The translations under genes and the position numbers were made by a program. A DNA stretch of 64,000 nt, taken from NCBI GenBank assembly GCA_951406725.2, contig OX597820.1:110732001-110796000 (forward strand), written 5' to 3'. The stretch's first letter is position 1. Every line of letters starts with the position of its first letter. This DNA is from Octopus vulgaris (Eukaryota). Below are positions 28,497 to 28,539 of this stretch, piece after piece. Below the pieces are notes generated by a model, which did not search any database, was not told the origin of the DNA, and worked only from the letters and a program-made list of their open reading frames with translations.

Positions 28497-28539
28497 TTAC
28501 AGTTGAAAAGGTCTCAAAATGACCGAAACCGGTACTGAA
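28497..28539 (+). ncRNA. hammerhead motif, U3-A8 variant (inverted pLTR copy)
   Basis: Same sequence as 26903-26945 on the opposite strand. Confidence 0.7.

What the first reader, a model, noticed from the sequence alone, without database searches (positions are those of the whole stretch)
28497..28539. U3-A8 hammerhead variant in three pLTR copies, with stem II covariation
Seen: CAG-TTGAAAA-GGTC.TCAAAAT.GACC-GAAA-CCGG-TA-CTG at 28497-28539 (+) and 26903-26945 (-). A diverged copy at 57247-57281 keeps TTGAAAA and has stem II AGTC/GACT (G-C to A-U double change), although its GAAA is damaged. The related element at 39-41 kb shares the GAAACCGGTA half but uses A3-U8. Inference: two related PLE lineages use different non-canonical 3-8 pairs, a natural covariation series inside one window.
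Basis: partly seen in the sequence, partly recalled or inferred. Interest (0 to 1): 0.75.

Follow-up and report, generated by a model that had tools for sequence, protein, structure and literature searches.

The report
Penelope hammerheads swap their core pair
This is a small hammerhead-shaped, likely self-cutting RNA at both ends of a young Penelope-like jumping gene; its U-A core pair is already published, but related elements in the same genome carry A-U and G-C at that spot, which suggests the cutting shape is being kept by selection (cutting itself is untested).

Summary
The motif is real: a minimal type I hammerhead with U3-A8, a palindromic stem III and a GUA site. It lies in the terminal repeat (pLTR) of a young Penelope-like element with reverse transcriptase (RT), a zinc-finger linker and a GIY-YIG nuclease. 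The copies at 28500 (+) and 26942 (-) are two ends of one insertion, so not independent; 57247 is an older, damaged subfamily copy. U3-A8 is not new: it is published for schistosome Penelope-like elements, with the same UUGAAAA core. Of 10,049 genome matches with positions 3 and 8 free, 7,524 are U-A, 1,465 A-U, at least 121 G-C and 114 C-G. In one clade, 97 of 100 listed copies are A-U or G-C and none is G-U. The protein tree needs at least three double changes. I found no paper with natural A3-U8 or G3-C8, but three key papers were unreadable. The stem II change G-C to A-U is real but is one event. Cleavage is untested. This scan noted A3-U8 before, elsewhere in this genome.

The parts
28500..28537 (+). 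Minimal type I hammerhead, family A1: stem I CAG/CTG, core U3-A8, stem II GGTC/GACC, palindromic stem III ACCGGT, predicted cut after 28534
28342..28632 (+). Inverted partial pLTR of the insertion, with the 34-nt tail (ends 98 nt after the predicted cut), running into (TA)n
   Evidence: 99% identical to L031 2776-3066
26905..26942 (-). Identical hammerhead in the 3' pLTR of the same insertion
26836..28345 (-). 5'-truncated body of the family A1 element: end of ORF2, 3' UTR and pLTR, ending 64 nt after the predicted cut in (TA)n
   Evidence: (97.5% identical to L031 5754-7278)
27484..28347 (-). ORF2 fragment: end of RT, Cys linker (C-x4-C-x2-C), GIY-YIG endonuclease
   Evidence: Pfam GIY-YIG E 3e-4, 21.3 bits, just under the 22.6 cut-off
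57113..57372 (+). Solo, older pLTR fragment (subfamily A2) with tail, 73% identical to A1
57247..57282 (+). Damaged A2 hammerhead: U3-A8, stem II AGTC/GACT; A13, stem III palindrome and one stem I pair altered
39242..40894 (+). Broken RT and GIY-YIG gene of the related family B element
   Evidence: 64% DNA identity to L031
41105..41142 (+). Family B hammerhead: stem I AAAGCA/TGCTTT, core A3-U8 (41111, 41116), stem II GTA/TAC, same palindromic stem III and GUA site
41080..41101 (+). 22-nt duplicate of the 5' arm of the family B hammerhead, seen in many family B copies; can fold as its own hairpin

Best explanation
The stretch is a minimal type I hammerhead motif with a U3-A8 core pair in the terminal repeat of a young Penelope-like retrotransposon, and it likely cuts its own RNA after GUA, predicted to need a second copy paired through the palindromic ACCGGU and probably the element's protein. 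Shown: the motif, its place in both pLTRs of a full-length copy (4,238 nt apart, 123 nt before the first ORF1 ATG), and Watson-Crick 3-8 pairs of all four kinds in different lineages of this genome. Inferred: because the 3-8 pair forms only in the active hammerhead fold, its repeated double replacement means the master copies were selected to keep that fold. Inferred: cutting trims the tandem or read-through transcript, and possibly allows it to close into a circle. Insertions come from a template that is uncut or re-joined at this site, since copies end 64 or 98 nt beyond it. The window's two A1 motifs lie on opposite strands and could not pair with each other as ribozymes in one transcript.
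For: All core positions, three stems and an NUH site are present, and the co-fold of two copies pairs stem III between strands. Full-length element L031 has pLTR-ORF1-ORF2(RT, Cys linker, GIY-YIG)-pLTR. With positions 3 and 8 free, at least 9,224 of 10,049 genome matches (92%) are Watson-Crick, against about 69% if the two positions were independent (arithmetic; copies are not independent). Family A: 100 of the first 100 listed of 2,752 are U-A. B/G clade: first 100 of 191 are 71 A-U, 26 G-C, 2 A-C, 1 U-C, 0 G-U (counted by eye). The protein tree separates A (U-A), F (A-U), C (U-A) and a G-C clade containing B (A-U; clade support 99.5), which needs at least three double changes. Stems I and II differ completely between lineages yet still pair. 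Literature passages read: the C3-G8 pair forms in the active structure (PMC3884650); C3G/G8C rescues a Penelope-like hammerhead, which cleaves only with its protein (PMC11167929); minimal motifs cleave weakly as dimers (PMC4209133).
Against: No cleavage data. Public runs were contigs only and show no RNA ends. Stem I of family A is only 3 bp, and the lowest-energy dimer fold of A1 keeps stem I between strands rather than in the catalytic arrangement. U3-A8 alone could come from drift in an AT-rich element. Up to 825 of 10,049 matches are not Watson-Crick and I did not inspect them for a mismatched family. Many tree tips were fetched with patterns that required a given pair, deep branches are long, and the order of C and F is unresolved (support 57). 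The A-U and G-C copies in the B/G clade probably reflect one switch. In the Anolis element, cleavage was not needed for insertion in vitro and no RNA ends were seen at the site. None of 40 family A1 copies examined ends at the predicted cut.
Confidence: 0.72

Rival explanations
1. The hammerhead fold is kept as a structure, for example a binding site for the element's protein or an RNA dimerisation signal, and cleavage is incidental or absent in the cell.
For: In the Anolis element the ribozyme cleaved only with protein, was not needed for insertion, and uncut RNA was the main template. Here 39 of 40 copies end 64 or 98 nt past the site and none at it.
Against: A binding or pairing role would not obviously need the 3-8 pair, G12-A13-A14 and the NUH site together across lineages only 50-60% identical in protein.
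Confidence: 0.14
2. The motif is a decayed ribozyme: U3-A8 and A3-U8 arose by AT-biased drift, and the conserved letters serve at the DNA level (promoter or nuclease target).
For: The element and genome are AT-rich, 75% of matches are U-A, and published minimal motifs are weak in vitro.
Against: G3-C8 families exist (121 matches against 2 controls). G-U and A-C combinations are nearly absent in the B/G clade. Stems re-pair with unrelated sequences. The youngest, still-spreading subfamily has the perfect motif.
Confidence: 0.1
3. The ribozyme is a passenger: it is active and selected for its own benefit (making circles or short non-autonomous copies) and gives the retrotransposon no advantage.
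For: Craig et al. raise this idea because Naiads spread without canonical hammerheads (PMC8557442). The genome holds 359-bp tandem repeats with a C3-G8 hammerhead and many solo pLTR pieces.
Against: All five RT-linked lineages sampled keep the motif 130-580 nt after ORF2. The tandem-repeat unit shows no useful similarity to the four elements compared.
Confidence: 0.04

Closest known systems
Minimal type I hammerheads of metazoan Penelope-like elements, U3-A8 families of Schistosoma mansoni Cercyon (Cervera and de la Pena 2014, PMC4209133; main text parts 1-2 of 4 and supplement file 2 parts 1-2 of 3 read; file 1 not available)
   Same: Same place (both pLTRs), palindromic stem III, short stem I, U3-A8; S. 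mansoni(4) has the same UUGAAAA core.
   Different: Here there is no extra base between positions 9 and 10.1, stem II is 2-4 bp instead of 4-8, subfamily A2 has A10.1-U11.1, and related lineages use A3-U8 and G3-C8, which none of the 56 aligned representatives shows.
Natural core variants of Perreault et al. 2011 (PMC3088659; passages read)
   Same: Reports natural covariation of C3-G8 to U3-A8 and stem II of only two pairs.
   Different: The passages seen mention only U3-A8, not purine-3 / pyrimidine-8 pairs.
PAc hammerhead of the Anolis Poseidon element (Frangieh et al. 2024, PMC11167929; second half of main text and passages read)
   Same: pLTR hammerhead upstream of two RT start sites that bound a 30-40 nt tail; here copies end at +64 and +98, a 34-nt tail.
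   Different: PAc is C3-G8 in nature and G3-C8 is only an engineered partial rescue; here G3-C8 is natural.
Neptune/Nematis-type EN+ Penelope-like elements (as defined in Craig et al. 2021, PMC8557442; introduction and passages read)
   Same: [quoted passage not shown]
   Different: Two overlapping ORFs with a shared TTTTTTA site. The paper's Fig. 1 legend says ORF1 can be separated by a frameshift in some types; I could not see in which. Clade not placed against named references.
Rfam Hammerhead_HH9 (RF02275)
   Same: Best Rfam match; aligns core, stem II and stem I.
   Different: 22.9 bits against a gathering score of 52; stem I is much shorter and stem III has no loop.

Membership tests
Minimal type I hammerhead ribozyme | Core U4 G5 A6 N7, A9, G12 A13 A14, A15.1-U16.1, H17 | tested here: met
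   for 28500, 26942 and 41105; not met for 57247 (A13 changed)
Minimal type I hammerhead ribozyme | Watson-Crick pair between positions 3 and 8 | tested here: met
   U-A in family A, A-U in family B; covaries across lineages
Minimal type I hammerhead ribozyme | Stems I and II around the core | tested here: met
   3 bp and 4 bp in A1, 6 bp and 3 bp in B
Minimal type I hammerhead ribozyme | Palindromic stem III allowing a dimer | tested here: met
   ACCGGU self-duplex -8.3 kcal/mol; paired between strands in co-folds
Minimal type I hammerhead ribozyme | Extra base between 9 and 10.1 and G10.1-C11.1, as in the published metazoan consensus | tested here: not met
   No extra base in A1 or B; G-C present in A1 and B, A-U in A2. 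Some published members also lack the extra base.
Minimal type I hammerhead ribozyme | Score at an Rfam hammerhead family's gathering threshold | tested here: not met
   HH9 22.9 of 52 bits
Minimal type I hammerhead ribozyme | Self-cleavage after H17 | not testable with these tools
   Only contigs available; no RNA ends
EN+ Penelope-like element, Neptune/Nematis type | RT with C-terminal GIY-YIG endonuclease | tested here: met
   785-aa ORF2 in L031; homologues carry RVT_1 and GIY-YIG
EN+ Penelope-like element, Neptune/Nematis type | CX2-5CxxC linker and two Cys between GIY and YIG | tested here: met
   Read directly in the translations
EN+ Penelope-like element, Neptune/Nematis type | pLTRs, inverted truncated copies, 30-40 nt tail, microsatellite targets | tested here: met
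   449-bp repeat in L031; 22 ends at +64 and 17 at +98 of 40, all 39 running into TA repeats
EN+ Penelope-like element, Neptune/Nematis type | Single ORF | tested here: not met
   ORF1 and ORF2 overlap by 67 nt in different frames in L031; same junction motif in families C and F
EN+ Penelope-like element, Neptune/Nematis type | Placement in the Neptune or Nematis clade of an RT tree with named references | not tested
   Trees used unnamed homologues only

The most novel reading that the evidence does not exclude
One clade of Penelope-like elements has switched the hammerhead's catalytic 3-8 pair at least three times, including natural A3-U8 and G3-C8 cores not yet described. This would be direct evolutionary evidence that these elements need an active ribozyme to spread, and that standard CUGANGA or YUGANRA searches miss most of their hammerheads.
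Probability: 0.45. Interest if true: 0.62.

Novelty: new variant of a known kind. Interest (0 to 1): 0.42.

Why it matters
The role of the hammerhead in Penelope-like elements is open: it is weak in vitro, was not needed for insertion in the one reconstituted system, and has been called a possible passenger. Repeated compensatory change at a pair that forms only in the active fold argues that cleavage is selected, and gives a natural set of U-A, A-U, G-C and C-G motifs to test side by side. In this scaffold only about 1% of matches have the textbook C3-G8, so searches with the standard core undercount these ribozymes badly.

Tried and rejected
Whole-window Rfam scan: swamped by microsatellite matches to microRNA models; no hammerhead among the 150 of 523 rows shown. 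Generic repeat finder: only (TA)n arrays. RNA runs: no RNA holder listed on record; contigs cannot show ends or strand. Laying four further runs on the family B motif listed no rows for positions 3 or 8 (17 rows not shown), so nothing on linkage. DNA tree of B/G flanks: 12-13 apparent changes, rejected as inflated by truncated copies with unrelated flanks; only its well-aligned part was read, as about one switch. Tip L097 dropped from the second tree as a chimera (family C gene 950 nt before a family F motif); near-identical and short tips were also dropped, leaving 25 of 37. 'A-U to G-U to G-C path in stem II' considered: among the first 100 family A matches 73 are G-C, 12 G-U, 13 A-U, 2 A-C, but C11.1 is in a CpG and one insertion has C at one end and T at the other (L235), so G-U may be decay; not claimed. 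Families D, E and the long-stem C3-G8 family could not be tied to an RT gene and were left out of the change count. No hammerhead found near the 46.4-48.4 kb element. Papers not held: Lunse 2017, Arkhipova 2017, Przybilski and Hammann 2007. Literature searches for natural A3-U8 or G3-C8 found none.

Full report
Observation. The motif is present as described, at 28500-28537 (+) and 26942-26905 (-), with U3-A8, stem II GGTC/GACC, a loopless palindromic stem III and a GUA site. A strict scan finds three such motifs in the window (these two and 41105-41142) and none in 200 of 200 shuffles. The copy at 57247-57282 keeps the first half but has changes in A13, stem III and stem I. Rfam recognises the motif only weakly, as Hammerhead_HH9 at 22.9 bits against 52.

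The element. A search of the window's own genome (2.8 Gb) with the pLTR gave 1,086 candidates; of the 40 scored, 42 matches were listed and 41 were 99-100% identical, so the subfamily is very young. Locus L031 is a full-length copy: a 449-bp repeat at each end with the same hammerhead 4,238 nt apart, a 437-codon ORF1 and a 785-codon ORF2 with RT, a C-x4-C-x2-C linker and GIY-YIG. The window's 26836-28632 is one 5'-truncated insertion: the last 1.5 kb of the element on the minus strand joined to an inverted pLTR piece. The two identical motifs are therefore one event and lie on opposite strands. Of 40 A1 motifs examined, 22 end 64 nt after the predicted cut, 17 end 98 nt after it, one continues into ORF1, and all 39 ends run into TA repeats (this sample came partly from best hits to the pLTR). 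That matches the two start sites and 30-40 nt tail described for Penelope-like elements. The anatomy fits the Neptune/Nematis type; I did not place it against named references.

The 3-8 pair across the genome. With one scaffold (core, purine 10.1, short stem II, pyrimidine 11.1, GAAACCGGTH) and positions 3 and 8 free there are 10,049 matches (control 716). U-A accounts for 7,524 (control 9), A-U for 1,465 (57), C-G for 114 (3) and G-C for at least 121 with a narrower pattern (2). So at least 92% are Watson-Crick, against about 69% under independence. Copies of a family are not independent, so the lineage level matters more. Using the ORF2 region upstream of the motifs, five groups carry RT/endonuclease sequence: A (U-A), C (U-A), F (A-U), G (G-C) and B (A-U, the window's 39-41 kb element), mostly 50-62% identical to each other, with B and G closer (mean 71%, up to 87%). 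In a tree of 25 copies and 6 unnamed homologues, B falls inside the G-C clade (support 99.5) and A, C and F are separate; at least three double changes are needed. Within the B/G clade, a pattern free at 3 and 8 lists 71 A-U, 26 G-C, 2 A-C, 1 U-C and no G-U among the first 100 of 191. A-U and G-C copies reach 94% flank identity, so this is probably one recent switch. Limits: many tips were fetched with pair-specific patterns, the up-to-825 non-pairing matches were not inspected, and only stem III CCGG was searched.

Stem II. The G-C versus A-U difference at 10.1-11.1 separates the young A1 from the older A2 subfamily (median flank identity 0.95 within pattern-sampled G-C copies, 0.81 within A-U copies). 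Among the first 100 of 2,752 family A matches, 73 are G-C, 13 A-U, 12 G-U and 2 A-C, and all 100 are U3-A8. It is a true double change but one event. The G-U copies may be an intermediate or CpG decay; one insertion differs between its two ends.

Mechanism. Shown: position, structure, covariation. From the literature: the 3-8 pair forms in the active conformation; G8C is rescued in part by C3G; minimal Penelope-like motifs cleave weakly as dimers or with their protein. Inferred: the element's RNA is cut after GUA when two motifs pair through ACCGGU, leaving a 5' end 123 nt before ORF1. Because copies extend past the site, and some have ORF2, pLTR and tail in one run (L001, L002, L004), the template for insertion is a tandem read-through RNA uncut at that site or a re-joined circle; my data do not separate these. 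I put the whole reading at 0.72. From recall only (paper not held): any Watson-Crick 3-8 pair retained cleavage in two engineered ribozymes, one preferring pyrimidine-3 / purine-8.

Against. No cleavage or RNA-end data were available. Family A's stem I is 3 bp and the best dimer fold is not the catalytic one. In the Anolis element cleavage was dispensable for insertion in vitro.

Novelty. U3-A8 is in print for Penelope-like elements, with about 1,300 hits in S. mansoni and the same UUGAAAA core, and for natural hammerheads generally. None of the 56 representatives in that paper's supplement has a purine at 3. Eight searches found no natural A3-U8 or G3-C8, but Lunse 2017, Arkhipova 2017 and Przybilski and Hammann 2007 could not be read, and they or their supplements may hold such cases. 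An earlier unchecked note of this scan reported an A3-U8 family elsewhere in this genome; my counts agree with it. The flagged motif is a new member of a known kind; the four-pair series with G3-C8 is a likely new variant. Interest 0.42.

Noticed in passing
L031:4261-4327; L232 near 2614; L233 near 2761: ORF1 and ORF2 overlap in the -1 frame, and the same TTTTTTA slippery-type heptamer sits at the junction in families A, C and F. Programmed -1 frameshifting is likely; no strong downstream structure was predicted for family A.
   Followed up: partly
window 41080-41101; also L043, L196, L197: Families B and C carry a tandem duplicate of the hammerhead's 5' arm just upstream; in B it can fold as a separate hairpin. 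Possibly an alternative fold that regulates cleavage.
   Followed up: no
L099:1350-1530: Two inverted motifs about 100 bp apart with the same stems, one U3-A8 and the other A3-U8. A single case, unexplained.
   Followed up: partly
G000 C5:30322882, C13:524775, C15:22392206: Three family A copies with C3-G8 among the first 100 listed of 114 C-G matches; chance double change not excluded.
   Followed up: no
L131-L137, L144, L145, L151-L153, L199-L201: 359-bp tandem and inverted repeats with a C3-G8 type I hammerhead, retrozyme-like, with related U3-A8 copies.
   Followed up: partly
window 28492-28544: The youngest A1 copies can form an extra 4-bp helix (AATC/GATT) beyond an internal loop in stem I; older subfamilies differ there. 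The Rfam model aligns a similar bulge, but the inner stem is only 3 bp.
   Followed up: no
window 900-10370 (+): Exons of an NPL4-like host gene (label from recalled motifs). The insertion lies about 16 kb beyond the last exon recognised; whether it is inside the transcript is not known.
   Followed up: partly
window 46419-48446 (+): Interrupted fragment that looks like another Penelope-type RT and GIY-YIG gene (recalled motifs; no Pfam hit); no hammerhead found nearby.
   Followed up: partly
window 35033-38898: Mariner-like transposase pieces (35033-35793, -) next to a LINE-like element with a Cys/His-rich ORF and RT (35902-38898, +; RVT_1 E 2e-16). Mariner label is recalled.
   Followed up: no
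L051, L054, L055 (family D); L048, L056, L062 (family E): Further repeats with GAAACCGGTA: D has U3-A8 and a 6-bp stem I but a stem II that does not close next to G12; E has A3-U8 but poor stems. Not tied to an RT gene.
   Followed up: partly
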